From assembly GCF_006345805.1 (NCBI RefSeq), contig NC_043001.1, positions 37,572,001 to 37,636,000 of the forward strand: a stretch of 64,000 nucleotides of DNA. The letters are read 5' to 3'. Each line of letters opens with the position of its first letter. The first letter of the stretch is position 1. The DNA is from Octopus sinensis (taxonomy: Eukaryota). Both the position numbers and the translations under genes were made by a program. Positions 2,129-53,972 of this stretch are shown here, piece by piece. The notes below the pieces were generated by a model. The model saw only the letters and a program-made list of their open reading frames with translations. It made no database searches and had not been told where the DNA came from.

Positions 2129-3046
2129 CAATGGTGAGTCAAAAAGTAATGCAATTTTTATTGTAAGAGGTGCATTTTTCAATGCATTTATTTGATATTT
2201 GGTACAGCTATAAAGGCACATATACTCTTGATATTTAATTATCTAATTTTGTTTCTTTTTTCCAGATGTATAAATAAATAAGCTGATATCAGAATGGCTG
2301 CCCTGCTGGAAGTCTGTCAGAAAGAAAGAGCGGTTATTGAGTCCTTTGATGCCAAAAATGTTTAAAAACATACAGCTTTAGACTACAGCAATATGTGGAG
2401 ATGGGCTCACCATCTGAATGAGAATTCAACAAACCAAAAGAATTGGGAAATTCATGCTTAGCAGATATGTCTTGTGGCTGTATGTCAACTTCTGTCAACC
2501 CTGCCAACAAAGAAAAAGCAGATGCTTTAATTAGAACTAATAGGCACATAACCATTGATGAGCTGGCCTCAAAGCTTGGAGTTAGCCATAATAGTACTCA
2601 CAACATTATCGAGTCATTTGGATATTCAAAAGTGTGTGCCTGCTGGGTACCAAAACAATTGACAAATGAGCACAGAATTGAAAGGGTTAACTGTTGCCCT
2701 GAATTTCTTGAACTCAGTGAAAGAGACAAAACCTTTCAAAGGCTCATAACTGGTAATGAAACTTGGATTCATCATTATGAACCAGAATCAAAAAGACAAT
2801 TGATGAAATGTAGAAGTGAAAACTGCTGTAAGGAATTGGCTATGTCAGCAGCCAGCTGAATATTATAAAGCTGCAATACATGCCCTCGTTCATAGGTGGA
2901 ATACTGCCATTGAAAGAAGTGGTAACTATATTGAGAAGTAGAGACGTGAACTAGTGATGTATAGCTATATTTTGATGTGTGATATATTTGTGTTCCTTGC
3001 TTTTTATATAATAAAACAAATTGCATTACTTTTTGGCTTGCCCTTG
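2129..3046 (+). mobile_element. internally deleted mariner (Tc1/mariner) transposon
   Basis: TA-flanked imperfect TIRs (caatggtgagtcaaaaagtaatgcaatt / aattgcattactttttggcttgcccttg). ORF 2443-2859 has an HTH (ITIDELASKLGVSH), WVPKQL (WVPHEL-like) and ITGNETWIHHYEPESKRQ (TGDETW-like); the rest of the catalytic domain is missing. Confidence 0.9.
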
Positions 3047-4697
3047 TATATTTTTTAAGTTGATTAATTTACACTAAAGTAAATATTTAAAGTAGTCTCA
3101 AAAACTGATGTGAAATGACTATTAGATTTTGAAAAGTTGTTATCTCTTGAAAAAAATCCATAATTTTGTTTAATTAATTGAATTAAAAGTGCCTAAATCA
3201 ATGTTGATTGATAAATTGTAAATTAACTGTTTAAAATTTTATTGTTTTTCTATACCTCCTAGTACCACACCAATCACTTTTCTGAAAAATAACAATTTTT
3301 ACTACTAATAGGAAGTACTGGGGCCCAATTAATTAAAGTGGCACTGAATTGGGAAAAAAAAGTTCAGGAAACAATGGTTTAAATTACAGGAATTATTAGG
3401 AAGCAAACCACTTCACTAAAGACTACTTTATAACTGAATACATATTTTTTCAGATAGCAAACATTTGGAAATTTTTCAATCTTCTTTTGAATTGACATTA
3501 AAAAAAAAAAACATATACAATCATAATAATTCAAAACTGATGAAAATGGTAATTAATCCAACTCTTTACAAAATCATAAATAAGATAGTGGAAGAGCCTT
3601 TTTAGAACATGCAACAACTGTTATATTCAATTTTTATTTATTTATTGAGGTGTTAAAATTGTTGCCCTACCTCTACTACATGATCACTAACAAATTCCAC
3701 TACAACTATTTAAAATAATATACTGGTGAGTATTGATAGGTCTCTCTTTGTTGAGCCTGTTTGAGCTTTTGACATGAACTTTTTTTTTCTCACTTTCAGA
3801 TTCAGTTCTTCTGTCTATAAATTAAGATGTTTTATTACAATCAGTCATCCATCCTTACATTTTCCTTTCTCCTTCTTGTGATGAGGGTTTCCTTTTTGAG
3901 TGTTGTTGGCTATGTGTACATATAAAGTATAGTGAAAATATCTGCTGCTAATACAAGTTTACTAAATTTATATATTCTTACTAAGTTGATGTATTTACCT
4001 GTATGGTAAAAGTGTTGGATTAACAAATAATAATTTATAAATAACATAAAATCACATATGTATCTGTATATATTGATAATTTATAGGGACACTGTATTTT
4101 GTTATGTGACCATAATACATTACAAAGTATATTAAACATTTTATAAGTCAATAATGTGTACTGTTGTGCTATTTTTTACCTTAAATATTTAACATGATAA
4201 ATGTATTATAGGCACCTGGTCCTAATGTTTTAAGTTTCAAATTTAGTTAATGGAATTTCTTCTAGAAGAACAATCATGATTTTATTTCTTTAAGAAATAT
4301 TGTTTAATTCTTTTTGCTTATTTATTTAACTATTATTGTTATTATTGTTGAACTGAGGAGTGACTATAATTTTAAATTGAATTGTTTTTCGATTAAATTT
4401 AAATTTAATTGTAATTTGAATTTAAATTATAGCCATGAAATGTACATAGTCTTTTTACTTATTATATATTGGTTATTCATTTTTGTACTTTTTGTGATCT
4501 AGTTATATGTTTTAAAATATATTTTATTTTTTATTTATGATTTGGTGATTTGGTTTATGTCTATCATTGTTTGAATCGCATAATAGTGGTTTTTCTCTAA
4601 TTTATATATATCATATATTCATATTGTGAAATTTGATTTAATACTAAATTGAATTTTCCCCTGTAAGTTTGGAGTTATACTCCCTAATATTATTATC

Positions 4698-5189: not shown

Positions 5190-6556
5190 GGAGCTAAATA
5201 ATATATTGACTGCCAACCTCTAGCCTGTTGTTAATTTGGGGGCCAAGTCTGTCTCTGAGGATAGCTTCCTTAATTCTTAGATTACCCAAATTTCTTTCAT
5301 TGACCTCAGTTGTGACTGTTATGCTTTTGTCAGTGTTTTGGCATCTGTCTAGTTGTTTTCTGAAGGAGGAGGCTCTCGTGTTCAGATGTTCTTTGATGCG
5401 AATGTGTAACGGTCTTGTTGTGCTACCCAAATAGAACTTGTTGCATTTGTTACATTGTATTCTATACATGACATTTACTCATTAGCATAAGTCTGTGTCA
5501 CAGATTGGTCAGTTTGCTGGTATGCATTGATTGCTGTCCTTTGCTCATTTCTTTGCAAGGTGTCTTCTCAGAGAGGGGCCGGAGTGGGCTAGTTGTATGT
5601 CTAGTCTTTCTCTTCTTATGGCTCTTCGGATGGCTGTAGTTACCCTCTCGCTAAAATAGGGTATTTTAAGGAAGCATGTGTTGTTGGGTTTTCTGTGTTG
5701 GTAATCTTGTGTACTTAAGCCAATTTGCAATGGATATAAGGTACCCGTTGGTTTTCAATATCTCTAGGAAGTGTGTAGTGTGGGTCAGCTTGTCCTCTGT
5801 CCTGCTGCACTTGCTGTGGATGTGTGCAAGTTCATTTCTGGTATATCCTATTTTGGCACCAAGTGGAAGTGCTGAACTGTACTGGACAAACATATCTCTA
5901 CTGGCTGCTTTCTTGTAGAACTCAGTGTGCATCTCTCCTTCTTCCGTTATTTTCAGTTGGAAGTCAAGTAGCAGTAGTGATCCAGTGTTGTCAGGATGTT
6001 CTATAGTGAACTGTATGTTCATGTCCATGTTGTTCAATGTTGTGAATATTCTGTCAGCCTCTTCATGAGAGGATGTAAGTTTGAGGATGTCATCTATGTA
6101 CCTGGTGTAGAAGGCACATGGGTGGCAGATGTTGAGTGCTCAACATTCCAGATGGTTCATATAGGTGATGGCTAGTAGGCCCAAGAGACTGGATCCCATA
6201 GGGAGACCTTTTGTCTGTTTGTATATGTGGTCATGGAAAGAGAAATAGGCGTTGTCCACGATGATGGAGAAAAGTTGATGTATATCAGCTGCAGTAAGTC
6301 TGAAGTAGTGGATGTTGGACACTACTATGCAGTCAGTCAATAAGTTCACCACCAAGTGTGCTGGTACTGTTGTGTACATGGAGACAACATCAAGACTAAA
6401 GGCATATCTGTTTTGTCTGTGTTGGTCTGGGGGCAGTTGGCACAGTCTTTTGATGACTTCATCAGAGTTCTTGATGTGTCCAGGAAAGGTGGAGAGTATG
6501 GGTTTCAGGATGTTGGAAAGTAGCCAAGATATTTTATGTAGAGGTCCTTCCATGCT
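5190..6556 (-). mobile_element. decayed, 5'-truncated Penelope-like retroelement (RT + Cys linker + C-terminal GIY-YIG endonuclease)
   Basis: SLDVVSMYTTVP, FSFHDHIYKQTKGLPMGS, YTRYIDDI (~6085-6110), IQFTIEHP..LLLLDF..FYKK, and YRIQCNKCNKFYLGSTTRPLHIRIKEH...LRIKEAIL..P.IN. Frameshifts and stops present. The 5' end abuts a (TA)n tract at ~6570-6650. Confidence 0.9.
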
Positions 6557-21000: not shown

Positions 21001-22594
21001 TAAAAATTCATATTTCATTATTGAACATGTAATTTACTTATAAATATATTTAGGAAGATTTCTTTGATATAACTGAAGAAATTTAATAAACCTCACACCA
21101 GAGAATTTAGCTACTCAAAAACTGTCTTATTAAAACGTACAGTTTTTGAAAGAAGGAAGTGTAAATTGGGAAATGTTTGGAGAAACTTTTAGAGGAAAAA
21201 ATGGCTGAAGAAGGAAACTGATTCAATTCTATTAATATTACAGTGAGATATTTAGTTTGTGCAATAAGTCTGCTATCTTTGATCTTTTCATACTATATAT
21301 AAGCACACTTATATACAGGTGGTAGTGTATATTATATGTGCATGCAAAGTTAATATAATATGCACTCTGTTATATGTATTGTAGAAGTTGTGTCAGCAGC
21401 ATGATACATAGGAATACATGAGTGATGTGTGAAGTTTGTATGAGTGGTATGTATATGTATCTGTAGGAGAGGGGAATTTTTACACTTGTTACTCATGTAT
21501 GTTTGCATGTATGTATATTGTGTAAGCATGGTATAGCATATGGTGTTTATTGCATTTTGATATAGTACATGTGGAGTATATTTATGATATGATATTTTTG
21601 TGGTGTTTTTAAGAGTATTTGTATATACATGTGCATATTTGAGATAAACCTGTTGCTATGTGTATGTGAAGTGTAACATATGTTGCATCTTAAAATGACG
21701 TATGCTATGCATTTGAGTTGTAGTATATGTAATATGAAGTTAATATGTATGTTGTGAAACATTGAGACACACATTGTAATATATGGTGCATCATAATATC
21801 CTATGTATGTATGTAAATTGTTATATAAAGTTGATTAATTGTGATGGTACATCATGTGATGAATATTATGGTAGCATGTGATGATGTATCATAGCAAATA
21901 TTACAACTATGATGTATATTAGGATATATGCAGGAGTTGTGAATTATTATATATGTGTTAGGACTGCATGTTATGATTTGTTTTGATATGCTTTTGTGAT
22001 GCATCTTACAATACATATTGTAATGTATGTTATGAAAATAGGTGATGGTGGGTTGTAGCAAACATCACAACTAAGATACATATTGGGACATATGTTGTGT
22101 ATTGTAGAACTTGTGTTAATCCATGTATGGTATGATGTGCCTTGATATGTATGTTATGGTGCATCTTACAATACATAATATAATGTATTCTGTGATGTTA
22201 CTGATTTAAAATCTTGATAGTAATCAGTAAATTCCACCTTACTCTATATGCATACACAGACACCAGCGTCTACATACACACATATATGCACAAAACTAGA
22301 GAACTGTCAATAGGAAATGAAGAGGCTTGATGACAACATGAAGAAAGCACCATATATACAGAGAGAGTTATTCGAATAAGTACAGAAAGGACTGTAAATG
22401 CATATACAGGTGGCAATAGTAAGTACAAGGAGCGTCATGAATAGCTAAAGAAAGTAAGTACCATTCATTGAGTATTTATAAGTATAGAGAATAGAGTGCA
22501 CTATAATGACAATATGTTAAATATAAGTAGATTTACATGTAGAGAGTAATATGCTGCACAGTTAGCATATACATACATAATACACATACACACC

Positions 22595-23612
22595 ACAGTT
22601 CTAGGACAGCACTCTACACCATATGAGATGTCATCGGGTGTACCACAGGGATCTGTCCTTGGTCCCCTCCTGTTTGTGGCATACATTAATGACATAGATG
22701 CCAATTTAAAGAATGCCACAGTATTGAAATATGCAGACGACATCAAGCTGTACCTTGAAATCAAGAGGACTGATCCTGATGTCTACAACTCTTTCCTGCA
22801 ATCAGACCTAGACACAATGCAGCAATGGATCACAGACTGGCAACTGAAACTGGCTGTAGACAAGTGTACCACCATGCATTTTGGGAGAAAAAACCCTGCG
22901 TCCACATACTCCCTCCACAACACTGATATCAAGAAATCCTCTTGCGAGCATGACCTAGGCATCACTGTCAGCAGTGATTTGCGTTGGACAAAGCATATCT
23001 CTAAAATTGTCAAGAAGGCCGAGGGTGTCTTGGCATCACTCAGCAAGACTTTTGTTAGCCGCTCTCCAGCCATCTATTTAAAACTGTATACAGCTATGGT
23101 ACGACCACACTTGGAATTCGCATCATCAGTTTGGAATCCCTATCTTGCTCAGAACATTGACCTCCTGGAATCTGTCCAGAGACGTGCAACCAAACGCATA
23201 CCCTCCATCAGACACCTACCATATTCTGAGCGCCTTGTTTCCCTGGGCATGGATTCACTGAAGCTCCGGCGTCTGGCGACGGACTTGGTAAACACCCACA
23301 AGGTTATCAACCACCTCACCAACAACAACACTGAACACCTTTTTGATCTCCATGTGTCTAACACACGTGGACATGACTACAAAGTCAGAAAACAGCACAG
23401 CTCCCATGACTTTCGGAAACATTTTTTCACGCTCAGGGTTGCTGAAGCGTGGAATAAACTGCCTGCATCAGTTGTTGACTGCCATGACACTGCATCCTTT
23501 AAGGCCCTCATGCTTCCCGAAATCCGTCGAAACTACACCTGATTATATATACACTTTAGATGAGTTGTAGTGCACCTGAGCACTGTACACAATTATTATT
23601 ATTATTATTATT
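22595..23612 (+). mobile_element. 5'-truncated CR1-group LINE with uninterrupted RT C-terminal ORF (22628-23542)
   Basis: SGVPQGSVLGPLLFVAYIND, KYADDIKLY, DLGITVSSDLRW, LYTAMVRPHLEF..VWNP, LESVQRRATK, RKHFFTLRVAEAWNKLP; short 3' UTR followed by an (ATT)n tail. Confidence 0.92.
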
Positions 23613-23673
23613 ATATGTACATACATATCTATCTATATACATATATGCACATATACATCTATCTATCTATCTG

Positions 23674-23719
<46 letters not shown>

Positions 23720-23851
23720 CATATATATATACATATATATATATATTTAAAAAAAGGAGATGTCGAACACGAGTGGTGATATATAAAAAAGAAATGAAGA
23801 AAATGCTGACAAATAATGAAGTAATTTAAGTAATTTAATTAGGTGAAAGTT

Positions 23852-23895
23852 CTTTTTACCGGTTGCGCATTTGTTATGCTTATCAAATATAAAAG
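23852..23895 (-). ncRNA. degenerate minimal hammerhead ribozyme motif
   Basis: Minus strand: cttttata-TTGATAA-gcat aacaa atgc-GCAAC-cg-GTA-aaaag. Both core boxes carry substitutions but spacing and stem II are preserved. Confidence 0.45.
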
Positions 23896-23949
23896 AGAGA
23901 TTAGAGTTCCTTTCTTATAGAATTTTTCCTCTTATATATATATATATAC

Positions 23950-24015
<66 letters not shown>

Positions 24016-24027
24016 TATATACATATA

Positions 24028-24411
24028 TGGAAAAAAAAGTCAGGCAGAAAATGCTAGGATAATTTTATAAAAAACATTTCAGTACCGGTTTCAGTCATTG
24101 AGACTTCTTCAGCTGTATGGGAAACAATAAAATTTAGGAAAAAATTAAAAGAAAAGTTTTTTAAAAGAATACTTTTAAAAGAATACTATGAACCCACAAA
24201 AATAAACAAGAGAGACAGAGACAGGCAGAAAATGCCCCTTGTATTTGAATACTATACAAATATTTAAAAAAAAAACTTTTCTTTTAATTTTTCCAAAATT
24301 TAATTGTTTTCCATACTGACAGTTGAAAAAGTCTCAATGACTGAAACCGGTACTGAAATGTTTTTTATAAAATTATTTTAGCATTTTCTACCTTGACATT
24401 TTTTTTTTCCA
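24028..24411. mobile_element. (TA)n-flanked palindromic mini-element with hammerhead motifs in both arms
   Basis: Inverted arms of about 140 bp (24028-~24165 / ~24261-24411), imperfect, between TA-rich microsatellites. Confidence 0.8.
24080..24115 (-). ncRNA. minimal type-I hammerhead ribozyme, intact core
   Basis: Minus strand: cag-CTGAAGA-agtc tcaat gact-GAAAC-cg-GTA-ctg. The mirror copy on + at 24320-24355 has the core mutated to TTGAAAA. Confidence 0.75.
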
Positions 24412-24533
24412 TATATATCAACTCGTGTGTTCCTTTTCAACCTTCTACATACACACACACACACACATATATATACATACATATATATCTATACATATAT
24501 ACACTTCTTTTATATATCTATCTATATCTATAT

Positions 24534-24586
<53 letters not shown>

Positions 24587-24946
24587 TATATATACATACA
24601 TACATATATATATACACACACACATACATAGGTATATTTTGAATCTAAATATCATACCTGGTGCATATATGAAATATTAAATATTTTTATAGTTAATAAT
24701 CTTTAAATGAGAACATCAAGATGTTATCCACTTACACATGCCTTACAATTATTAGTATTACTAATTTTTCAGTTTAATATCTACCACCATTAATTTACTA
24801 AAACTTGAAACTCCATTAATTAGATACTTAATAGAACCTGAATTTATATCTAGAACTTCAATATCATTAAACCTTATTTACTTAGTAATGCATAAATAAC
24901 ATCCCCTTACCTATAATTTTTTTAATATCTGTTATCTTTATATATA

Positions 24947-24990
<44 letters not shown>

Positions 24991-24995
<5 letters not shown>

Positions 24996-25245
24996 AGAAG
25001 AAATGAGGTACTCAGAAATTCGGATGGTTTTATATTTACAGATATTTATTTGTATATTACATGTTCGATTTGAAAACCCCACTAGAATGGGAGAAAGCGC
25101 TAATATATGATATATGATATAAGATATAATATGTATAAATACGTGTAATATACAAATAAATATCTGTAAATATAAAACCATCCAAATTTCTGAGTACCTC
25201 ATTTCTTCTAATATAAAATACCTGTACATCATCTCCAAACCTTCT
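24991..25245. mobile_element. (TA)n-flanked palindromic mini-element (same family as 49943-50080)
   Basis: Arms ttagaagaaatgaggtactcagaaattcggatggttttatatttacagatatttatttgtatattaca and its reverse complement at ~25144-25212. The spacer holds a degenerate hammerhead TTGAAAA-cccca..tggga-GAAAG-cg-CTA (25070-25102). Confidence 0.75.
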
Positions 25246-25641
25246 AATATATATATATAAATTTATTTTTTATTTTATTTTTTGCTTATGTGTGTATGTG
25301 CACATGTTTATATGTATGCATACATATTTGTGCATGTGTATGCATATGTATGCTCAATAAAATATGTATGAGTAACTATGTATTTGATGTTCATGTCCCC
25401 ATGTCCTAATGCACTAATCTAAAATATGCATTTATATATCCTAAATGAATACCAGTCTATAATTAAGTTTTACTAGATATGCATTATAATTGTTATTTTC
25501 AAGCTTTTGAGTCTTACATGCGTTATATTCGCCTCTTCAAATGCTTTCACTCCACTGCACACTTTTGTACGCCATCCAACTCGATCCAAAGCAAGAGTTT
25601 CTGTCTTTTGGATCCATTCCAAGTGACTTCATAGTAGTCCT

Positions 25642-25880
25642 TATACATACATACATACAAATATATATATATACATATACATACACACATATATACACAC
25701 ACACGTATATATATACATATACATATATATATATACATACATATATATATATACATATACATATATATATATATACATATAATATATACATACATATATA
25801 TATATATAATATATATATATATATATACATATATACACACATACATATACATACATATATATATACACACATACATATAC

Positions 25881-25918
<38 letters not shown>

Positions 25919-25923
25919 ACATA

Positions 25924-25955
<32 letters not shown>

Positions 25956-26108
25956 CTATATACATATACATACATATATATACATATATATATACATATA
26001 CATATATATACATACATAATATATATACATACATATATATACATATATATATACATATATATATATACATATATATATACATATATATACATATACATAC
26101 AAATATAT
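25642..26108. repeat. long compound (TA)n/(TACA)n microsatellite
   Basis: About 470 bp of TA/CA repeats; one of many such tracts (e.g. 6570-6650, 7655-7766, 23615-23746, 30746-30830). Confidence 0.95.
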
Positions 26109-26109
26109 C

Positions 26110-26299
26110 TTAGATAAAGATAGTTATGGCTGGTCTATGGGGTTGCCCTGGATTTCACGTCTATAAAGTACTTAGCTTTATGGCATCTCTTCAGACCCTA
26201 ATGGCCACTAGGGTCTGACGAAATACTGTAAAGATAAGTGCTTTATGGATGTGAAACCTAAGATAACCCCATAGACCAGCCATAACTATCTTTATCTAA
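26110..26299. mobile_element. 190-bp hairpin made of two back-to-back degenerate hammerhead motifs, within TA microsatellite
   Basis: Perfect outer ~35-bp arms. + strand: gggt-CTGACGA-..ctgtaaag/ctttatgg..-GAAAC-ctaag-ATA-accc (26211-26269). - strand: gggt-CTGAAGA-..-GAAAT-ccagg-GCA-accc (26140-26198). Confidence 0.75.
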
Positions 26300-26368
26300 T
26301 TACTCTATTGCTCTATCACTTAGAGTGTACTTCTCTTTTGGATTTATGATTTACTGACAATATATATA

Positions 26369-26399
<31 letters not shown>

Positions 26400-26793
26400 G
26401 GCAAATCTTTCTATAATATATAATTTTTCTAAATGGTATAATTTAATTTTTCATTGTTGTGTTGATAAAAGGTGCTTTTTTTCCTTATATATATATTATA
26501 TTTTGTGAAATTTGATTTAGTATTTCTAAATTGAATTTTTCCCTGTAAGTTTGGAATAATATTCCCTCATATTATATATATATATATATATATAAAATCA
26601 AAAATAAGGGTGAAAAAATTTGATTTTAATTATACTGCAGTAAATTTTTTATGCAGTATTTGTTTCCGGGATTTTTGGCGCGCTATAGCGAGGGCATTCG
26701 AATCATAACTGGGAATATAATTGACTAAACCACACATGTGTTTGATGTTATGTTAAAATCTAGCGTGCGGTTTAGTAAATTATATTCAAGACA

Positions 26794-26873
26794 AATTCTA
26801 CTGATGAACTATGGATTATATTATGTAAGTAAAATTGCATAATTCATTAATAGCGAAACAATTGTCTAGAATT
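26794..26873 (+). ncRNA. type-I hammerhead ribozyme (Penelope-type) with extended stem II
   Basis: aattcta-CTGATGA-(a)ctat...attatgtaa/ttgcataat...atag(c)-GAAAC-aatt-GTC-tagaatt. 7-bp stem I, palindromic stem III ACAATTGT, predicted cleavage after C26866; the stem II closing pair is an A-C mismatch. Confidence 0.85.
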
Positions 26874-27160
26874 AATCTACATTTATGTTATTTTTCATTT
26901 GTCCTGCTCGTTTACGCTCATAGTTGTGCTAATTCTCCTTGGAAACAATTCTTGGTGGTTGAGACCATAGTGGATCTATTTTTAGTGCAAGAGTCAACCA
27001 CATAGTGGACACTCTCTTATATTTGTATATATATATATATATACAAAAAGCAATAAAGATTCAAGTCAATTTTAATGAATTTACTTGAATATGGTACCTA
27101 ACTTAGATGCACCAAAAAACTATACGGTTTTAACAATACAGTAATGTGGGGTGATTATAA

Positions 27161-27556
27161 GCGAGAAAGAAGCAACAAGAATGGATAAGTTTTTAGTACA
27201 ATCGTTTCATACAAAGACAGGCTTTATTAAAAGTTGCAAAAATTGCAGCATATAAACGTGTCCCGTACTCATCAGCTAAAATACATGTGAGTTCTCTAGA
27301 CATCTTAGTGGTTGAGGCTATACTCATGAAGTAATGTAGATAATTAAGTAACATAAACAAGTAACATAAAATTTTTTAAAAATCTGTGATAAGACTGTAC
27401 ATCATCTTTAAAGAACTTTAATGAACTTTGGAAATCTGTTTATGTTACTTAATTATCTACATTACTTCATGCAATTTTTGCAACTTTTAATAAAGCCTGT
27501 CTTTGTATGAAACGATTGTACTAAAAACTTATCCATTCTTGTTGCTTCTTTCTCGC
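27161..27556. mobile_element. palindromic mini-element with perfect 87-bp outer and 35-bp inner inverted repeats
   Basis: 27161-27247 is the reverse complement of 27470-27556; 27325-27359 is the reverse complement of 27437-27471; followed by (TA)n. Confidence 0.88.
27191..27281 (-). ncRNA. type-I hammerhead ribozyme, intact core
   Basis: Minus strand: ttttag-CTGATGA-gtac...gtat-GAAAC-gatt-GTA-ctaaaa. 6-bp stem I, GUA cleavage triplet at 27199-27197. Confidence 0.8.
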
Positions 27557-27594
<38 letters not shown>

Positions 27595-27617
27595 TCACAC
27601 ATACATGTATATAATTT

Positions 27618-27982
27618 AAAGAAAGTCAGGAGGTATGAGATCAATATATTTATTTCACCAGTTGATATTCATAGGATTTTACATGTCTGCACTAGTGTGT
27701 CGGCTATAAATTGTAGAGTACTATTCTACATTTTGCAAAACTATGCCTCTATAGAAGGCTAGTTCTTCAGACTGAGCTAGCTTTCTATATCTGCATAGTT
27801 TTGTAAAATGTAGAATGGTACAATGCAAATTATAGCAACATATTGGTGTACATATGTAAAATAATTTGTCATACACTAAAATAGGTAATTTTTGTATGAT
27901 GTTGGCTGCAAAATGGCTATCATCCTATGGATATTAGCTGGTGAAATAAACATATTCATCTCCTACTTCTTGACTTTCTTTA
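27618..27982. repeat. older nested inverted-repeat element
   Basis: Diverged outer arms (aaagaaagtcaggaggtatgagat...catagga / tcctatgg...atctcctacttcttgactttcttt) and an inner hairpin at ~27719-27820. Confidence 0.65.
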
Positions 27983-28392
27983 TATTCTGTATAATTCTCA
28001 TGAAATAATTTTCAATGCTTGGATTTACTAGATTTCAACTGCAAAGAACTCTACCTTACATTCCTACATATTAGTTTACCATGTGGTATGTAGCTGGGTC
28101 CAATGAAGGAGCTTTTTTGTGATTACCTCTGGATTATATAAATCCACATATTATATTGATACAATAAATATACACACATATGTGCACACATACATAAATA
28201 TAAAAATACACACACACACATATGTAAATACAAACACACACACACATATACATGTATAGGTATATATAATAAACCTTTACATATATAAATATAAATAACG
28301 TGAAATGCACGAAGGGACGAACATAAGAAACAGACGGGTCATTCAAAGCCTTCGTTCTTCAGTCAGAAACCATACATAAATACATCTATAAA

Positions 28393-31412: not shown

Positions 31413-31912
31413 TTAAACTTCAGTTTTAGAAATTCCTTTAAATACCACAAATGTTGTATCTGATTCTGGTGAAGTTCTTTTGCTTTTTCTGAAAAATGAG
31501 AAACGCTTCCGTTTTCTTTTTTTCAATCTTCCAGCATAAGGATCTTCTTTGGTAGGTTTGAAGCGCCCAAAAACACTGACAGTCACACCAAGTGCCACAA
31601 AAGCCAAGATGCATGGAATAAAAGCCATACTCTTGATTGCCATAGAGTAATTCATAAATCTTGAATTCATAACAGGATCCTCCATCACAAAAGTCTTATT
31701 AGTTTCCGGGTTTATCGTGCTGTTTCGCCATTCAAATGATACCATTGATTCATTGTGGATGCCAAGCTGTTGTGTAGAGAGTACTGTGTAGATACGGTTA
31801 TCAGCACCAACATATTGACCATAGTCATACGGCTTGTAAAACAGTTGATTTTTCCACATATTCAAATCAAGTATGATAACACAAAAGAGAATTCCATAGT
31901 TGAACCATTTGC
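31413..31912 (-). CDS. TMEM117: TMEM117 terminal coding exon 5
   Basis: ttccag|GC AAA TGG TTC AAC; GKWFNYGILFCVIILDLNMWKNQLFYKPYDYGQY...NSRF...AFIP...FGRF, stop TAA at 31415-31413. Summed CDS 553+236+258+121+500 = 1668 nt = 555 aa plus stop. Confidence 0.95.
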
Positions 31913-33576
31913 CTGGAACAGATGCATAAATCAATAAAAAAAAAATCCCAAAGGATAAAAAGGAAAACTTTTTTTAAACATAAATTAACATTAAAGAAAT
32001 ACGAAAATATGTATGTGTTCTGATTTGCTGATTTATACTAAGTGAAGTTAGATGAAATAACTCACTATGTTTGGGCATTAGTATAATGATCTTATGATTC
32101 TCACTTGAAGAGAAAAACATCCAGTTCTATCCTGTGCTACATTCACTGCTTCATTTCATACATAACTCTACTGTTGTAAATATATCATATTACGTTGATA
32201 AGTAAGAAATTCTAAAGATACCTTATGCTAGAAATAATAGTTAAATCGTCCTCATATTACACCCTATCTTAAATATAGGCATGTATAATGGAAGAAAGGT
32301 TTTTATGATACATTTGGGGTATCTCCTTCTTCCATTATAATTATTCTGTTGATTTAAGAAGCTGGAGATACAATGCATGAAGTTCTCAGGAGGAGTAAAT
32401 TCAATAACTGTTTATTCACAGGTGCTTCGTACAAGGGGTTTGCTTTCAGTAAGCATCTTCACAGTAGTGTGTAGTTAGCCTTCTCTTCCATACATGTGAG
32501 GTTCAATAACCTCTGGAGACAATACAATGTGGTGTCACAGCAGGACAAAAGTCTGCTGTAAGCTCCTGGCTTCTCGTGTCGGTGTGAGAAGAATGAGAGG
32601 GAAAATGTTGTTGTCTTTTCCTTAAATAATGGTTGCAGGTGAGATGTCGTTTTTGTCTTGCGTATGGCAATGGTTGCAGGCAAGATCTTGCTGTTTCAAA
32701 ATGGTGCTGGCTTCTTTGTGCCTCACTACAGGGGCTTCTCCTTGAGAACGCCAGTGTGAAAATAGAGAATAACTGGAGTAGGCACAAGAAAAGAGCAAAG
32801 ATGGTAACCGATCGCAAACTACCAACAAAGATGGTAACTGATCTCAAACCACCTCATGAGCTGGTTAGTCTCATGTCAATTGCACTTACGTATATTTAAT
32901 TCACTTGTCCCCCCTCCTTTTATCACTCATTGTGCCCACCTTCCATCTTGCAATAACCACTTTTCCCAGTGTTCTCAAACTCCCTCCCTGTAAATGTTTT
33001 TCCTGCAGCTTTCAACTTGAACTATTCAAGAGGAACATTAACTGTGTCTGTTTCATTTGTCTCAGAATATCATTGATATCAATGACCACAACCCTTTCTT
33101 CTAAACCAAACAATAAAAGAAGAAAATTAAAACAACAAATATCAAGCAAAAAACTTCACAGATGATACTGGGAATTTGTGTTCGGGGTTATAAATTAGAA
33201 TTTTTAGTTTTGGCATCTTAACCTTTGAGTTATGGAATGATGATGCGGTTTTTTTCTTTTCAAATCTGAAAGTTCCTCAGTATCTCTTTAATAGAGTCTA
33301 TAATAAGAACCATGTCATCAGCAAGCATAAGTTCCTAAGCCCATCTATTCCTGAAATTCTGTGCTGTTAGCTAAATAATTGTTTGATAGAAGGAGCTGGA
33401 AAGGAAACTCTATTGAACATATATCTGAACATAAATTTTTTCCCTGAGGTCACTGAAAATCATAAGCATGTATATAGTTTGAATGTCTATCTCAACCCAT
33501 TCATTTTCATCTTAGTCTCTACTATAGAAATGTAACCTTGTGAGAGACTGTAAATCAACACATGCAAGTTCACCTA

Positions 33577-34418
33577 CATGGTCTGATCAATAAGTATCTG
33601 GACTGTTGCCATAGTAACAAAGCTAAAGCACACAGAGTGAAGCCACTTGGCATAGATTAATCTTGAGATCTTCAGTGCATCCACACAAAATTTTTATGTT
33701 CTAGCTCACTTCTGTTGTTTAGAGCAGTGCTTGGAAGGAAGGTGTGTAGTGTGTGATTGTTGCTTTGACTATGACAGAGAAAAGTTGATCAGAGAATCTG
33801 CATCAAATTTTTGCTAAAAGCTTGGCGATATTTGCTCAGAGTTTTCATCATTCTTGACAATCAAGGAGATCTTGTGCAACTGAAACCCGAGTGAATTTTG
33901 GCCGGCTGAAAGCTGTTTTGGCACAAACTTGGCAGACATGTGTCTGATACCCAAATCTTCAGTGATAATGGACTGAACTGAATTGTAACTAATCTGCACA
34001 TCCTCTGATAACTCACGGACGGTGATCTGATGATTTTCCCTCACAGCTGCATGCACATCTGCAATGTTTTCCTCAGTTCTGCTAATTGGGGGTCTCCCAG
34101 AATGTTTGTCCCAGAAAGGCCATCTTGGAAATGTCTGAACCATTCGTACACTCCTCTCCATACACTTTCTGCAACTTTGCATAGGCCTCTGAGTAGGTAT
34201 CTCCATGACAAATTTCTCTGTCATGGTCAATGCAATGATCACATGTTACACACCTTCCTTCCAAGCACAGCTGTAAACAGTGGAAGTGAGCTAGAACGTT
34301 ACAACTTAGTGTGCATGCACAGCAGAGGTCAAGGTCAATATTTACCAAGTGGCTTCAATTTGTGTGCTTTAGCTTCATTACTATGACAACAGTCCGGATA
34401 TTTATTGATCAAACTTTG
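33577..34418. mobile_element. mariner-derived foldback element (two inverted 5' halves) in a TMEM117 intron
   Basis: TA-flanked ends (catggtctgatcaataagtatctggactgttg / caacagtccggatatttattgatcaaactttg) with more than 200 bp diverged arms. Minus-strand ORF has HSGRPPISRTEENI...ITVRELSEDVQIS...LGIRHMSAKFVPKQL (mariner HTH and WVPHEL-like motif). Confidence 0.88.
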
Positions 34419-39806: not shown

Positions 39807-41432
39807 GCAAACAATCCTCTCCTCAAATCAGGGGGTCTTGTCTTGTAAGTTGCTTGGTAACTTCACTAGTGCTGGTGACATGTAAAAAGCACTTAGTACA
39901 TTCTGTAAAGTGGCTGGCATTAGGAAGGACATCCAGTTGTAGAAAGCATGCCAAAACAGACAGAAGAGCTTGGCCCAGTCCCCTGGTTGCCAGCTCTTCA
40001 AACTGGCCAACATGGAAAATAGATGCTAAATGATGATGATAATGATGGTGATAATATGTATATAAATGTGTGTGTGTGTGTGTGAGAAAGAGAGAGAGAA
40101 TTCAGTGTGATTTAAATTACATGACAAATAGCAAGTATTTAGAACTTCATGTGATTTGTTAATTACTGAAAAATAAAAGTACAAGGTGGACTTGTATTAG
40201 AGTGTAAATTTTACTGATTGGTCATCAAAGTTAGCTTGGTCACAGTGTACATAAAGAAAAAGCAAAAACAAAATAGGATAGTTTCTTCATAAATTACTTG
40301 GTTACATCATCTTTCACATGTTTCATTAACAATGAAACAATATCGGTTATATAAGGAAAGTCTTATAAGCAGATTATATTGTCAAATCTTGAAGTTGCAT
40401 AATAATCATTATTAATTTTTAGGATTTACATTGGATTTCAAACAGAGTTATGGTATCAACAACATGGCCACTGATACCACAATTCTGTTGATAGTTGTAA
40501 ATGCAAGTGCCACCCTCATACAAGTGGTGTCGTTTTTTTCCAATCTTCTCTGAAAACATGTCTGGTCATGAAGAAATATGACCTTATTTGTGAGGATTGG
40601 CAGCAAGAAGGCTATCTGATAGTAGAATTTCTGCCTCAGCAATTTCTGACTGACCCGTGCAAGCAAGAAAGTATGGATGTTAAAATGATGATCACACACA
40701 CACACACACACACACACACTCGTGCATGCATATATGTGCATATGTATACACACATATAAATATATATTTATAGATAAATATTTTCCCATGCTGGCATATA
40801 CCATATTGCCATTAATCAATTGTCTTTCATTATCTTGACCAATATCCTAAGATCTAATCTCATGGCTTCCTTTCATACATTAATCATTCTTGTTTTACCA
40901 CAACATTTTAACTAACACTAATTCTTCATTCTCATCAATTTTGCATACTATTTTTCACCACAAACAACAAGGGTGTATTTTGCTTATAATACAAGAATGC
41001 ATTTGTTCATAACTAAAATGATTAACTCACAACAGCTATTTTACTTAGCTCTAAATAGGTATCACAGAGTGGTACAGTTCACTGTAGAAGGCAGCAGCAT
41101 TGCAAAAAACTAATGGAGGTTTCTTTATTTACATCAAATTAATAATACTTATTTGAGACATTCCTGTAGTCCAGGAAACTACAGTCATTTCTTTATCTAT
41201 TGAATTTTTACATGTTTTTCATTAGCAACCATGATATCCCAACAAACAACTTGGGTTATGAAACCAACAATCATTGCCACATCAGACAAACTTTCGCCTC
41301 AGATATCCAAAATATACATATATAACTGTTATGTAATATGTATTACACACACTCACACACAAACAGAATGGTAAATAGAAACACAAAAATATGTAAAATA
41401 TTATGTATGATTGCAAAAGTATTGTTACTTAC

Positions 41433-41985
41433 TAAATAACATTTCATGAAATAAAAGTTTTCCCAGAACAAGTCCGGAAATGATCCCACACATCCATAAA
41501 ATAAACTTGAGTTTTGTCAACCTGTTCCTTGGGTATTTTGTGAAGAGAAATGAAAAATCATTTCCTATAACTGGCACATGACTCTCTTTGACACTGTGAG
41601 CAACTGGATCCTCAGCATAAACAAGAAAGTTAGCAATGACCACCAGGTATGCAACAGCCAACCGGCTGTAGGGATGTTGGAAAAAATAACGTGCATCTCT
41701 TTCCATAAATAAAGAGTAGACACTGGCAGCATCTGTCTGGTCAGGATCTTGTGTGGAGACTGCAGGCGTTGAAACTCTTGAAGTATCGCCAATGTCTGTG
41801 GAATCTTCAGCCAATAACACTCTCCCAGCAGATATATTGGTACCAGCATCCCCATTATTTACTAATTCACTGACTGGGACATTGCTCTTTTCTTCCACAC
41901 TGGTATCATTTAACACAATTTCATTTAGTTCTTGATAGCCATTACAATTTTCCGATTCCATGTCAATTGAATGTTCCATAATCAT
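41433..41985 (-). CDS. TMEM117: TMEM117 orthologue, coding exon 1
   Basis: Encodes MERDARYFFQHPYSRLAVAYLVVIANFLVYAEDPVAHS...LGKLLFHEMLF, matching the recalled vertebrate TMEM117 N-terminus (MGKDFRYYFQHPWSRMIVAYLVIFFNFLIFAEDPVSHS). First in-frame ATG at 41985 follows an in-frame TAA; the ATG aligning with the vertebrate start is 41706. Acceptor ttttgcag| puts the exon start at 42058; donor A|gtaagt after 41433 (phase 1). Confidence 0.93.
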
Positions 41986-41996
41986 CAAGGTAGCAC

Positions 41997-42037
41997 CTAC
42001 ATTGCAGACATTTTCACACAACAAAACCGTAAAGCAT
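41997..42037 (-). promoter_or_regulatory. two short upstream ORFs in the TMEM117 5' UTR (MLYGFVV*, MSAM*)
   Basis: ATG 42037 to TGA 42014 and ATG 42011 to TAG 41997, between the acceptor (42058) and the main ATG (41985). Confidence 0.5.
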
Positions 42038-49912: not shown

Positions 49913-49942
<30 letters not shown>

Positions 49943-49944
<2 letters not shown>

Positions 49945-50080
49945 TAGAAGGTTTGGAGATGATGGACAGGTATTTTATATTAGAAGAAATGAGGTACTCA
50001 GAAATTCGGATGGTTTTATATTTACTTCTCTAAATATATAACCATCCGAATTTCTGAATACCTCATTTCTTATAATATAT
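49943..50080. mobile_element. (TA)n-flanked palindromic mini-element, second copy of the 24991 family
   Basis: attagaaggtttggagatgatggacaggtattttatattagaagaaatgaggtactcagaaattcggatgg is a near reverse complement of 25176-25240 and folds back on 50035-50076. Confidence 0.8.
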
Positions 50081-50861: not shown

Positions 50862-50867
<6 letters not shown>

Positions 50868-51150
50868 AATCAGAGGGGTGATCACTATGTGGACAACCCT
50901 TATGCTAGAAGTAGATCTGGTATGGTCTTACCATTAAGAAATGTTCTCAAGAAAAATTTAGCAAATACCAGAACGTAAGCGGATCTACTTCTAGCATAAG
51001 GGTTGTCCACATAGTGGTCATCCCTCTCATTTGTATATAATGCAGTTTACTGAACTTTCAGATTTTATATGCTAGACCACTGGTGTTAAATTGATGTTAA
51101 TTTAATTAAATTAATATCCAATTTCTTACCCTCATTTCAAATTTATATAT
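50862..51150. mobile_element. (TA)n-flanked palindromic mini-element related to the ends of the 26593-27030 element
   Basis: Arms of about 57 bp (50862-50918 / 50981-51038). The arm resembles 26971-27028 and 51110-51145 resembles the reverse complement of 26593-26630. Confidence 0.7.
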
Positions 51151-51470: not shown

Positions 51471-51899
51471 TTCATTAAATGTTTTTAAAAATATTTCCAT
51501 AGTTTTCAAATGCAAGGGACATTTTCCTTTTTTCTGTCTGTCTCCGTCGCTCTTTTTTTACTCATGTGAGGTCTTGGTAGCAGGTGGCAGCAGTCTTATT
51601 ATTTGATATGAGTTCTTAGTTTTGATTGTTTAAGCAGCAGTAGTAGCTGAGAAAGGAGGCAGAGGAGGAGGAGCAGAAGAAGAAAAAGAAGAAGAAGAAG
51701 AAGAAGAAGAAGAAGAGCGAGTAGAAAAAGAAGAGAAAGAATGATAGAAATGCGGGAGTGGTATGACAGTGGTAGGATGTTGGTAGAATCCTTTTAAATG
51801 GTCAAGTGACCTAAAAGTAACCCGTTGTAGTTGTAATAGTAGTGATTGGAATTGTTCTAAATAAATTTATGGGTAGTGACTGTTATGAATATATTGTTT

Positions 51900-52800
51900 T
51901 TAATATTTGCATGGGTATTAATCTAAGGCCCTTGTAATAGCGTCATTTGTGGTAGATGCATTTAAAAGGGGTTTATATTTTGTGATAAAATATGACTCTT
52001 TACTAATGCGCTGACTACCAGTTATATCGTCCCTGAATTCTGGAGCTGGGTTGTTTGTTAATGTGTATGCTGAATGCGCTTTTTCTGTATTCCCAAATGT
52101 AGAGCCATCCTTTAATGTAGACTGTTTTTGGTTTGGCCTATGTATTGCTCTCGACACCCAGAACAAGTTAATACATATATTAGGTTCTCTGAAGCACATG
52201 TGAAGTTGTTTTTTACTGTAAAACATTGAGTCTGTTTGAATGAAAACTCTGATCCCTCAAGTAGGTTGACACATATACCACAGCTAAGTCTTCAGTATTT
52301 TTTTACTGACAGCTTCAGTGTTGTCGAGTGTACTTGGGCTTTTGTTAGGAGACTTTTAATAGATTTGGGTTGTCTTTTGCTCTTTATGATGGTGTGCGTT
52401 TGGAGGATGAAATTATTCTGTGGTCCCTTTTTAGGAGGGGAATGTTCTGGAGGATGGTATCGAAGGCTTCATTGTTAAGAGGGTTGTGTGTGGAGATGAA
52501 TGGTAGGGCTTTTGGTTGTAAATCCTTCTTTAATTTGGGATGCCTGAGTTTGTGAATGTTGAGTTGTAGGGCACATTGAAAGCATATATCAATTAGTGAT
52601 GGTAATGAGTGTATCCTTTAATTCATGTAGTCATGTGTCCCTGGTGCTTGTATTAGAAACTATAGTACAAATCCTTTTTGCTAGGTTGAAAGGGATATTC
52701 ATTCTAGTGTATTTGGTGTGGCATGAGTTGAACAGTAGATATTGATTTGGAGTCCATGGGATTATAGTATATATGTTTCTATTTCGTTGGTTTGGTCATG
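51900..52800 (-). mobile_element. decayed Penelope-like element 3' part (RT thumb + GIY-YIG)
   Basis: QYLLFNSCHTKYTRMNIPFNLAKRICTI (~52660-52750, frameshifted) and the endonuclease end KESYFITKYKPLLN. Confidence 0.7.
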
Positions 52801-53972
52801 TGATGTGTATGGATGAGGACAGTTGTATAAAGAAGTATTGATCACTTATTAAAGTGGATGGAACTTGTGTAGGAGTAAGACTCAGGGAAACATGGGAAGG
52901 CTGATCTCAAGACCCTGAGCCTTATGAAGAAGACAACAAAAGACTAAGATATCTGGTGCCTTACAATAATCAAGAAGTACTAGCCATCACAGTAGAATTG
53001 ATACCCTAAAATAACCTTAGTAATGCTTATCCATGAAGGGCTCTGCCCCACTCCCCCTTCCATTCTCTCTTCCCCATCAACCTTTCCCCACCATGTTTCA
53101 ACGTTTAACATCCATCACTTCTCTATCACTCAAGAGCAAAATAAGCACATACTCTATCCCCCAGCATTTTCAGTTACTTTTCTTCCCCATCCCAAACCAC
53201 TTTCTTTTCCCATTATCTTCCTCCCTGCCAACTGTCTACACCAATCATCTCCTTTCTGCACCTTCTCCCCTCTCATGTGCTGTTTTCCATCATTAACACC
53301 TCACTTACGTGCTATCACCCTCAATGCCTCCACATATCTACCATAACCTACACCCACTAAGCCTTTCCTAGGTTTCTCCCCATCATTTATCACTGCGGCC
53401 TCTATCCTGCCCACTCACCCAGTCCAAACGTCTGTATCACTTCACCTATTCTCACCAATCCCAAAGTCCCTAGGGGATATGTCCTGACACATTTTCCTCT
53501 TCAGCTCTTTCACTATCACTCTCCTTACTTACTCTCTAATTCACTCTTCTTTGCTTTCCAACTGGTGTACCATGTATCTACAATAAAACACTTATCTCTG
53601 CCCCTCCATATGTTTAATCTCTCAAATGGAACGAAGCCACCCCACCAATACTACTCCCTCCCCTCAGTTGATGGGAGTTTTGCCTTTTTTTGTCTTGCAA
53701 GGTACTTGATGACTCTGTCAGTGCTGGTTCTACATAAATAGTTCCAGTGCTGGTACCCCGTAAAAAGTATTGGTTCTGGTACCACATAAAAGGAGCCCAT
53801 GCTGGTGCCATGTAAAAAGCACCTAGTACACTATGAAAGAGTTGGTGTTAGGAAGGGAATCCAGCAATAGAAATGATGCCAAAACAATGGCTCCTGATCT
53901 TACCAGCTTTTGTCAAACTGACCAAATGGAAAACAGACATTAAATGGTGATGATGATGACGATGATGATGAC

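What the first reader, a model, noticed from the sequence alone, without database searches (positions are those of the whole stretch)
23750..27982. Hotspot of non-coding, palindromic, hammerhead-ribozyme-bearing mini-elements nested in (TA)n microsatellite
Seen: within about 4.2 kb, at least six short inserts of mutually dissimilar sequence alternate with (TA)n tracts. Most are inverted repeats, and each carries the minimal type-I hammerhead layout CUGANGA-stem II-GAAAC-short palindrome-GUH (23852-, 24080-/24320+, 25070+, 26140-/26211+, 26794+, 27191-). Known: Penelope-like elements carry minimal hammerheads with palindromic stem III in their pseudo-LTRs, often leave inverted terminal copies, and some clades favour simple repeats; animal retrozymes are usually direct tandem repeats. 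Inference: these are either pLTR remnants or a family-rich class of MITE-like, PLE-mobilised ribozyme retroposons with inverted architecture that repeatedly target the same TA tract. Decayed RT+GIY-YIG PLEs at 5.2-6.6 kb and 51.9-52.8 kb show that candidate mobilisers exist in this genome.
Basis: partly seen in the sequence, partly recalled or inferred. Interest (0 to 1): 0.78.

Follow-up and report, generated by a model that had tools for sequence, protein, structure and literature searches.

The report
Penelope-end nest with a retrozyme
This stretch is a pile-up of seven ribozyme-motif-bearing insertions in TA microsatellite, five of them the cut-off ends of protein-coding Penelope-like jumping genes and one a piece of a protein-less 505-base repeat that likely borrows their enzymes, which is known biology plus a testable clue to how the mirror-image insertions form.

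Summary
Seven inserts between (TA)n tracts carry type I minimal hammerhead motifs: 5 descriptor hits against a mean of 0.002 in 500 shuffles, about 40 times the density in 400 kb of arbitrary genome. They are not a fixed MITE-like class. Each is a dispersed family with fixed 3' ends, variable 5' ends and variable palindrome junctions. Long copies of five run into reverse transcriptase and/or GIY-YIG coding sequence (three Neptune-like, two Hydra-like Penelope-like elements, PLEs). One (26595-27031) belongs to a non-coding, circularly permuted 505-nt unit, a retrozyme-like element, whose dispersed copies show the same PLE insertion anatomy. One is unassigned. In 35 of 38 palindromes exactly one arm carries the 'tail', and in one family the two arms share their 5' end (16 of 17), which suggests two primings on one RNA. 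Minimal hammerheads, the U3-A8 core, opposite-strand pairs, inverted copies, tails and (TA)n targeting are published PLE features. The scan's own unchecked notes describe similar palindromic stubs in other genomes. Cleavage and expression are untested.

The parts
23747..23934 (-). i1: single-arm pseudo-LTR with 33-nt tail (23747-23779) of a young Neptune-like PLE; core UUGAUAA at 23886-23880, GCAA for GAAA, predicted cut after 23857
   Evidence: near-full-length copy L299 with RT and GIY-YIG above Pfam cut-offs
24029..24449 (.). i2: inverted pair of 3' ends of a Neptune-like PLE; CUGAAGA at 24112-, UUGAAAA at 24323+; tail 24411-24449 on the right arm only
   Evidence: L002, L005, L009 run upstream into coding sequence homologous to window 51.8-52.9 kb
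24632..24941 (+). i3: left half of an older low-copy repeat (70-84% identity), no hammerhead found
   Evidence: L322 and L327 carry this and the 25265-25506 piece in order, in L322 around a TA tract
24994..25248 (.). i4: inverted pair of 3' ends of a Neptune-like PLE, inserted in the TA tract of the older repeat; core UUGAAAA at 25070+; tail about 25213-25248 on the right arm only
   Evidence: L138 has RT (below Pfam cut-off) and GIY-YIG (above) upstream
25265..25506 (+). right half of the older low-copy repeat, no hammerhead found
26110..26359 (.). i5: inverted pair of 3' ends of a Hydra-like PLE; cores at 26194- and 26215+, both decayed; tail 26300-26359 on the right arm only
   Evidence: in L146 both arms reach endonuclease-coding sequence (BLASTP E 2e-7 to the i7-family endonuclease)
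26400..26570 (+). i5b: pieces of another dispersed repeat usually beside TA; no hammerhead seen; unassigned
   Evidence: 25 hits in 19 of 305 loci; copy at window 4602-4688
26595..27031 (+). i6: about 400 nt of a 505-nt circularly permuted non-coding unit (retrozyme-like) with a short inverted head made of the tail end (26595-26631); core CUGAUGA at 26801, palindromic ACAAUUGU stem III, predicted cut after 26866
   Evidence: longest ATG ORF 25 aa, circular fold z -6.6 against 30 shuffles
27045..27557 (.). i7: inverted pair of 3' ends of a very young (99-100% identity) Hydra-like PLE; intact core CUGAUGA at 27275-, 60-nt stem-loop II, predicted cut after 27197; 115-nt tail 27045-27160 on the left arm only; right arm lacks the core
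   Evidence: L133-L136 share 3.4-3.8 kb with RT and endonuclease ORFs
27608..28149 (.). i8: old (about 80% identity) inverted pair with decayed hammerhead (family core CUGAAGA, about 115-nt stem II insert); 150-nt tail about 27989-28149 on the right arm only; parent not found
   Evidence: no contiguous PLE protein hit in 25 loci or in 4 stretches extended 8 kb
23613..23746 (.). first of the (TA)n-rich target tracts; others at 23933-24028, 24467-24614, 24939-24992, 25642-26108, 26360-26399, 27558-27591
   Evidence: 3' flanks of family copies hold (TA)3 within 22 nt in 30 of 30 (i1) and 28 of 30 (i4) against 7% of random 22-mers

Best explanation
Seven hammerhead-motif insertions sit in neighbouring (TA)n tracts: five are 3' ends (pseudo-LTRs) of protein-coding Penelope-like retrotransposons, one is part of a protein-less 505-nt tandem unit that is likely moved by the same enzymes, and one is unassigned. 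Shown: family membership, fixed 3' ends at two alternative positions (body end, tail end), TA flanks, variable junctions, coding sequence upstream in five families, and read-through from tail to unit start in the sixth. Inferred mechanism (about 0.55 on its own): the PLE protein, probably as a dimer, nicks both strands of a (TA)n tract and primes two cDNAs on one RNA, one at the distal and one at the proximal internal start site. Both run towards the RNA 5' end, or stop early, and are joined at short microhomologies, giving a palindrome with a tail on one arm. In the Neptune-like families many cDNAs end just 5' of the hammerhead, likely the transcription start of the pLTR promoter, so the short stubs would be by-products of full-length mRNA, not a separate element. 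The 505-nt unit would be a parasite that kept the start sites and the ribozyme, copied from a circular or multimeric RNA. Each insertion leaves TA on both sides, so a TA-rich spot keeps attracting more.
For: Coding links. Tail on exactly one arm in 35 of 38 inverted insertions not selected for the tail (hand tally, with by-eye checks; binomial p 3e-8 against 0.5). Arm 5' ends within 15 nt of each other in 16 of 17 i1 palindromes, permutation mean 6.3, 0 of 100000. With 3'-end-only queries, 19 of 27 i1 arms end within 55 nt and 14 of 27 i4 arms within 15 nt upstream of the core; 0 of 27 and 1 of 27 end at the cut site. In i7, arm overlap of 2-17 nt in 14 of 18 junctions; the tail arm is the longer in 9, the shorter in 7, equal in 2. 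i6: no locus of 30 extends upstream into shared non-unit sequence; the tail-to-start junction is present in all 30 loci fetched for it, some of them duplicates; the sister family (70% identity, 536 nt) has the same anatomy and a compensatory stem I. In vitro a PLE protein cuts and extends both strands and starts at two internal sites that bound the tail (PMC11167929).
Against: No expression, transcription start, circle or cleavage was shown. No autonomous partner with sequence similarity to i6 was found among 7 candidates compared. Each search returned only the 40 best-scoring candidates, so a rare coding i6 copy could be missed. The i5 link rests on one locus and a weak alignment, and tblastn did not recover it; Pfam gave no hit for the i2, i5 and i7 ORF pieces. 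PMC11167929 saw no difference in start site between strands, which does not by itself predict the one-tail rule. In i7 the arm 5' ends are often hundreds of bases apart and not clustered. Some clustered 5' ends begin with TA/AT and may reflect microhomology to the target, not a transcription start. Nesting is not general: other families occur at 32 per Mb beside family copies against about 22 per Mb in arbitrary DNA.
Confidence: 0.82

Rival explanations
1. The inserts are a distinct MITE-like class of fixed palindromic ribozyme retroposons that replicate as palindromes.
For: In i1 many palindromes have near-identical lengths and junctions clustered at two sites; 19 of 30 i7 loci have an inverted partner.
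Against: Junction letters differ between copies even in i1; i7 arm 5' ends range from 160 to over 1700 nt; single arms are common; five families have coding copies; i1 stubs are about 98% identical to the coding copy L299.
Confidence: 0.05
2. The 505-nt tandem unit is a solo pLTR of an unseen coding PLE that was duplicated head to tail at the DNA level, like a satellite, and is not retrotransposed as such.
For: No RNA evidence. In run X7 (kind unknown) summed contig depth over the sister unit is thousands of times that of unique flank, while the assembly holds 11 exact motif matches, which hints at unassembled arrays (not a copy number). The 2026 preprint discusses local tandem amplification.
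Against: The same tail-to-start junction lies in dispersed insertions on many chromosomes, of at most about 1.7 units in what was mapped, mostly ending at the body end or the tail end and often with an inverted head. DNA-level duplication does not make such ends.
Confidence: 0.1
3. Palindromes form by fold-back: one cDNA snaps back on itself, is copied, and the endonuclease resolves the hairpin at the body-tail border.
For: It also predicts correlated arm 5' ends, microhomology and one tail; the body-tail border holds a short TA run in i1 and i2; PMC8557442 attributes the tail to endonuclease-mediated resolution.
Against: Fold-back needs the first-made arm always to be the longer one, but in i7 the tail arm is longer in 9 and shorter in 7 of 18. 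It survives only if either arm can be made first.
Confidence: 0.25
4. The palindromes are long-read assembly chimeras.
For: Inverted chimeras are a known long-read artefact (own knowledge).
Against: Arms have diverged (about 84-86% identity in i5 and i8), ends are asymmetric by rule, and contigs of public runs show opposite-strand joints in the i6 family.
Confidence: 0.02

Closest known systems
Minimal hammerheads in pLTRs of animal Penelope-like elements (Cervera and De la Pena 2014, PMC4209133)
   Same: Type I minimal motif, palindromic stem III, extra base before stem II (i5), U3-A8 core variant, many divergent families per genome, mostly single truncated copies, and pairs 100-700 bp apart on opposite strands are all described there.
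   Different: Stem-loop II here reaches 47, 60 and about 115 nt (i6, i7, i8) against 7-8 bp there; the young i1 family has GCAA for GAAA as its majority form.
Neptune and Hydra clade EN+ PLEs (Craig et al. 2021, PMC8557442)
   Same: 5' truncation, partial tandems, adjacent inverted 5'-truncated copy, tail at one end, (TA)n insertion for Hydra; CX2-5CxxC linker and CCHH in i1; CxCX5C linker with CxxC and CxH motifs in i7.
   Different: Tails are 33-39 nt in the Neptune-like families but about 60-150 nt in i5, i6, i7 and i8 (30-40 bp described); the i7 element is over 3.8 kb (Hydra described as under 3 kb).
Animal non-LTR retrozymes (Cervera and De la Pena 2020, PMC7229834; Li, Clavereau and Pollet 2026, 10.64898/2026.07.22.740005)
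   Same: Non-coding, low-GC tandem unit with one type I hammerhead per unit, predicted highly self-paired circle, co-occurring with PLEs; PLE mobilisation proposed there.
   Different: Unit 505-536 nt (150-450 described), minimal-type ribozyme with long stem II, short dispersed partial concatemers, and insertions that carry the PLE inverted-head, one-tail and (TA)n footprint, which the passages I read do not report.
Non-autonomous Chlamys elements such as MRC1 (PMC8557442)
   Same: Non-coding PLE dependants that make pLTRs and head-to-tail multicopy insertions.
   Different: Green algal, from a clade that mostly lacks hammerheads, and they resemble an autonomous partner at the 3' end; no such partner was found for i6.

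Membership tests
EN+ Penelope-like element (i1, i2, i4, i5, i7) | RT followed by C-terminal GIY-YIG endonuclease upstream of the repeat | tested here: met
   i1 both domains above Pfam cut-off; i4 GIY-YIG above, RT below; i7 by homology; i2 by tblastn; i5 endonuclease only, weak
EN+ Penelope-like element (i1, i2, i4, i5, i7) | pLTR on both sides of the ORF (partial tandem) | tested here: met
   shown for i1 only, L299; no full-length copy seen for the other four
EN+ Penelope-like element (i1, i2, i4, i5, i7) | inverted 5'-truncated copy and tail at one end | tested here: met
EN+ Penelope-like element (i1, i2, i4, i5, i7) | type I hammerhead in the pLTR | tested here: met
   motif conserved across copies; activity untested, i1 carries A13C
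EN+ Penelope-like element (i1, i2, i4, i5, i7) | RT phylogeny places it among PLEs | not tested
   no tree built; clade names rest on motifs
Neptune clade (i1) | DKG motif, CX2-5CxxC linker, CCHH in the endonuclease | tested here: met
   read from L299 translations against the description in PMC8557442; i2 and i4 show the linker only
Hydra clade (i7) | CxCX5C linker, CxxC and CxH beside the conserved E and N, no CCHH, (TA)n insertion | tested here: met
   L136 translation against section 11 of PMC8557442
Hydra clade (i7) | RWK and DKT motifs in the N-terminal RT | tested here: inconclusive
   the four long copies fetched are 5'-truncated and lack that part
Non-LTR retrozyme (i6) | non-coding unit repeated head to tail | tested here: met
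   505 nt, longest ATG ORF 25 aa; junction in 30 of 30 loci fetched for it; slightly above the 150-450 bp described
Non-LTR retrozyme (i6) | two consecutive units with complete hammerheads | tested here: inconclusive
   L099 has two, one with a core change; sister-family L306 has two intact cores; no long array seen
Non-LTR retrozyme (i6) | canonical type I hammerhead (6-bp helix I, 4-bp helix II, loop-loop contacts) | tested here: not met
   5-bp stem I and 47-nt stem-loop II; so filed as retrozyme-like with a minimal-type ribozyme, which the 2026 preprint's descriptor admits
Non-LTR retrozyme (i6) | self-cleavage and accumulation as circular RNA | not testable with these tools
   only assembled contigs of runs of uncertain kind were available
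MITE-like fixed palindromic element | constant length and junction across copies | tested here: not met
MITE-like fixed palindromic element | identical terminal inverted repeats | tested here: not met
   ends differ by the tail in 35 of 38

The most novel reading that the evidence does not exclude
The i6 clade is a retrozyme lineage whose every insertion records Penelope-type integration, giving direct genomic evidence for the proposed mobilisation of animal retrozymes by PLE proteins; and the near-absolute one-tail rule with matched 5' ends shows that PLE palindromes arise when a protein dimer primes both target strands at two fixed start sites on a single RNA, independently of ribozyme cleavage.
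Probability: 0.4. Interest if true: 0.65.

Novelty: new member of a known kind. Interest (0 to 1): 0.42.

Why it matters
The nest itself is ordinary PLE debris at unusual density. Two points are of use. First, retrozyme mobilisation by PLEs has been argued from co-occurrence and phylogeny; the i6 clade adds an insertion footprint and a ready substrate for a trans-mobilisation assay. Second, how PLEs make inverted insertions is named as open in PMC8557442; the one-tail rule and matched 5' ends give numbers that any model must meet, and very young families (i1, i7) exist here to test it. The scarcity of ends at the ribozyme cut site, and young families with altered cores, suggest that cleavage is not needed for insertion.

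Tried and rejected
Rfam scan: no hammerhead family up to E 10; hits were mostly microsatellite-driven miRNA noise. Strict descriptors: 1 hit site without and 2 hits with full stem requirements, missing the U3-A8 forms. Monomer folding: no significant z-scores; cofolding favours pairing through the palindromic stem III but does not give the full double hammerhead. Clean 3-8 covariation within a family: not seen; i2 arms are TA 7, TG 5, CA 3, CG 1. 5' ends set by ribozyme cleavage: rejected for i1 and i4. Hydra-like endonuclease beside i6 locus L083: a separate insertion beyond a TA tract. Parent for i8 and partner for i6: none found. i3 as another ribozyme unit: no core in its copies. RNA: no RNA holder listed; laid contigs cannot show strand, ends or level, so they say nothing on expression. 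Host species not determined. Literature searches found no paper counting the one-tail asymmetry or reporting retrozyme insertions with inverted heads and tails; the library is open-access only, the dimer-cleavage paper of 2017 and the 2006 PLE survey (both recalled) were not read, and no supplements were opened, which may hold such cases.
Full report
Setting. The window lies in a 2.7-Gb, AT-rich animal genome; the host was not determined. The region sits about 3 kb beyond the last coding exon of a TMEM117-like gene and directly after the 3' end of a LINE.

Observation. Ten non-microsatellite pieces alternate with TA-rich tracts. Five are inverted repeats, one has a short inverted head, one is a single arm. 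A strict type I hammerhead descriptor finds two sites in the 64 kb, 24112- and 27275-. Allowing the U3-A8 core, one extra base and a long stem II gives five, all in this region, against a mean of 0.002 in 500 shuffles of the same inserts and 12 in 400 kb of arbitrary genome. The descriptor was written after I saw the motifs. The density is about 40-fold background; TA-tract density, 5.9-fold background, covers part of it, and with that adjustment five hits have a Poisson probability of 0.001 per bin in a genome of about 640,000 bins. The nest is rare but needs no special cause. Beside 226 other family copies a second family occurred at 32 per Mb, against about 22 per Mb in arbitrary DNA.

Families. 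Each hammerhead insert is a dispersed repeat: first-look candidates numbered 635 (i1), 212 (i2), 1746 (i4), 868 (i5), 1740 (i6), 1564 (i7) and 314 (i8), of which 40 were scored and 12-30 fetched per search. Core conservation across arms: i1 U3-A8 in 72 of 74, i4 in 52 of 58; C3-G8 in 35 of 43 (i5), 29 of 30 (i6), 45 of 46 (i7), 23 of 29 (i8); i2 mixed (arms may be counted twice where loci overlap).

Five inserts are PLE ends. L299 shows the i1 family whole: TA, inverted pLTR with tail, pLTR with tail, a frameshifted ORF, 3' UTR, pLTR without tail, TA, with RT and GIY-YIG above Pfam cut-offs. Three of 12 i2 loci run into coding sequence homologous to the remnant at 51.8-52.9 kb, whose endonuclease is 64% identical to that of i1. 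L138 links i4 to RT and GIY-YIG. Four i7 loci share 3.4-3.8 kb with an RT that has 88 relatives, the best at E 2e-70 carrying a GIY-YIG domain, and a CxCX5C-linked endonuclease, matching the Hydra description. L146 links i5 to a similar endonuclease, weakly. Pfam missed the i2, i5 and i7 pieces. i8 has the same anatomy but no parent was found.

One insert is non-coding. In 30 loci of i6, no copy extends upstream into shared sequence other than its own tail. L099 holds a 505-nt head-to-tail repeat. A search with the tail-to-start junction returned it in all 30 loci fetched, on many chromosomes; about nine are duplicates of each other or of earlier loci, and the only PLE protein hit lay over 1 kb away on the other strand. 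The unit has no ATG ORF above 25 aa and folds as a circle with z -6.6. A variant seen in laid contigs led to a sister family, 70% identical, 536 nt, 11 exact motif matches, whose stem I differs on both strands. Copies of both end mostly at the body end or the tail end, in TA, often with an inverted head; a few end further into the next unit. That is the PLE footprint on a protein-less unit; trans-mobilisation is inferred.

How the palindromes form. Among inverted insertions not chosen for the tail, 35 of 38 have it on exactly one arm: i2 3 of 4, i6 12 of 14, i8 10 of 10, sister family 5 of 5, five more in the window 5 of 5 (hand tally; L163, L307, L313, L314 corrected by eye). One has no tail, two have a tail arm and a longer arm. 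In i1, searched by its 3' end only, the arm 5' ends agree within 15 nt in 16 of 17. 5' ends cluster just upstream of the ribozyme in i1 and i4 and avoid the cut site. In i7 they are spread out, junctions overlap by 2-17 nt in 14 of 18, and either arm can be the longer. With the in vitro finding of two-strand cutting, two internal start sites bounding the tail, a predicted dimer and no need for ribozyme cleavage, paired priming on one RNA is my preferred model; fold-back remains possible. A pLTR-internal promoter is documented for Drosophila Penelope; that the clustered ends are transcription starts here is inference.

What is known. PMC4209133 (parts 1-2 of 4 read) reports minimal hammerheads, U3-A8, the extra base and opposite-strand pairs. 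PMC8557442 (passages and section 11) reports inverted copies, one-sided tails, (TA)n targeting and non-autonomous Chlamys elements. PMC11167929 parts 1-2 of 4 were read. PMC7229834 (passages) and the 2026 preprint (part 1, passages, discussion) propose PLE mobilisation of retrozymes. PMC2377424 (passages). PMC13282606 (passages; read on an untested guess about the host group) does not mention hammerheads. Other papers were seen as listings only. Unchecked scan notes describe palindromic PLE stubs and one non-coding tandem unit with PLE-type ends in other genomes.

Verdict. Real, mostly known; new members of known kinds, with a useful mechanistic regularity and one retrozyme-like clade. Interest 0.42.

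Noticed in passing
window 49941-50079: A second i4-family palindrome (97.6% identity to i4), tail on the left arm only.
   Followed up: yes
window 50866-51140: Palindromic insertion of a family about 75% like i6, tail on the right arm only; whether it is also a circular unit was not tested.
   Followed up: partly
window 51482-52888 (-): Decayed Neptune-like PLE whose 3' UTR matches i2 at 75% over 77 nt.
   Followed up: yes
window 5341-6550 (-): Decayed PLE (RT and endonuclease, 24-38% to the Neptune-like proteins), not linked to any insert.
   Followed up: partly
L309:1339-2254 (G000:C5, 116.26 Mb): Sister retrozyme-like family: summed contig depth in run X7 (kind unknown) is thousands of times unique flank and near that of an abundant repeat beside it, yet the assembly has 11 exact motif matches; possibly a collapsed array. 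Runs X1 (high) and X12, X19 (low) differ greatly.
   Followed up: partly
i1 family and L304-L311: Young families with altered cores: i1 has GCAA for GAAA as its majority form; 7 of 15 sister-family arms have CCGAUGA. The ribozyme may be dispensable for amplification.
   Followed up: partly
L048, L240, L253: Three i4 copies have an extra G before the clustered 5' end, as a copied RNA cap would give (idea from own knowledge). Anecdotal.
   Followed up: no
L356, about 1240 in the oriented locus: One inverted i6 arm ends exactly at the predicted cut site; single case, flank not TA.
   Followed up: no
L083 and L019: Further Hydra-like PLE ends of other families nested in the same TA tracts as i6 and i5 copies.
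   Followed up: partly
window 41425-42033 and 31413-31970 (-): First and last coding exons of a TMEM117-family gene.
   Followed up: partly
window 22550-23612 (+), 60600-62033 (+), 2422-2859 (+), 33814-34245 (-): LINE 3' end with (ATT)n tail next to the nest; another LINE remnant; mariner-like transposase remnants (the last named by eye).
   Followed up: no
window 26400-26570 and 4602-4688: Unassigned repeat, the most frequent neighbour of PLE ends in the fetched loci (12 of 22 events).
   Followed up: partly
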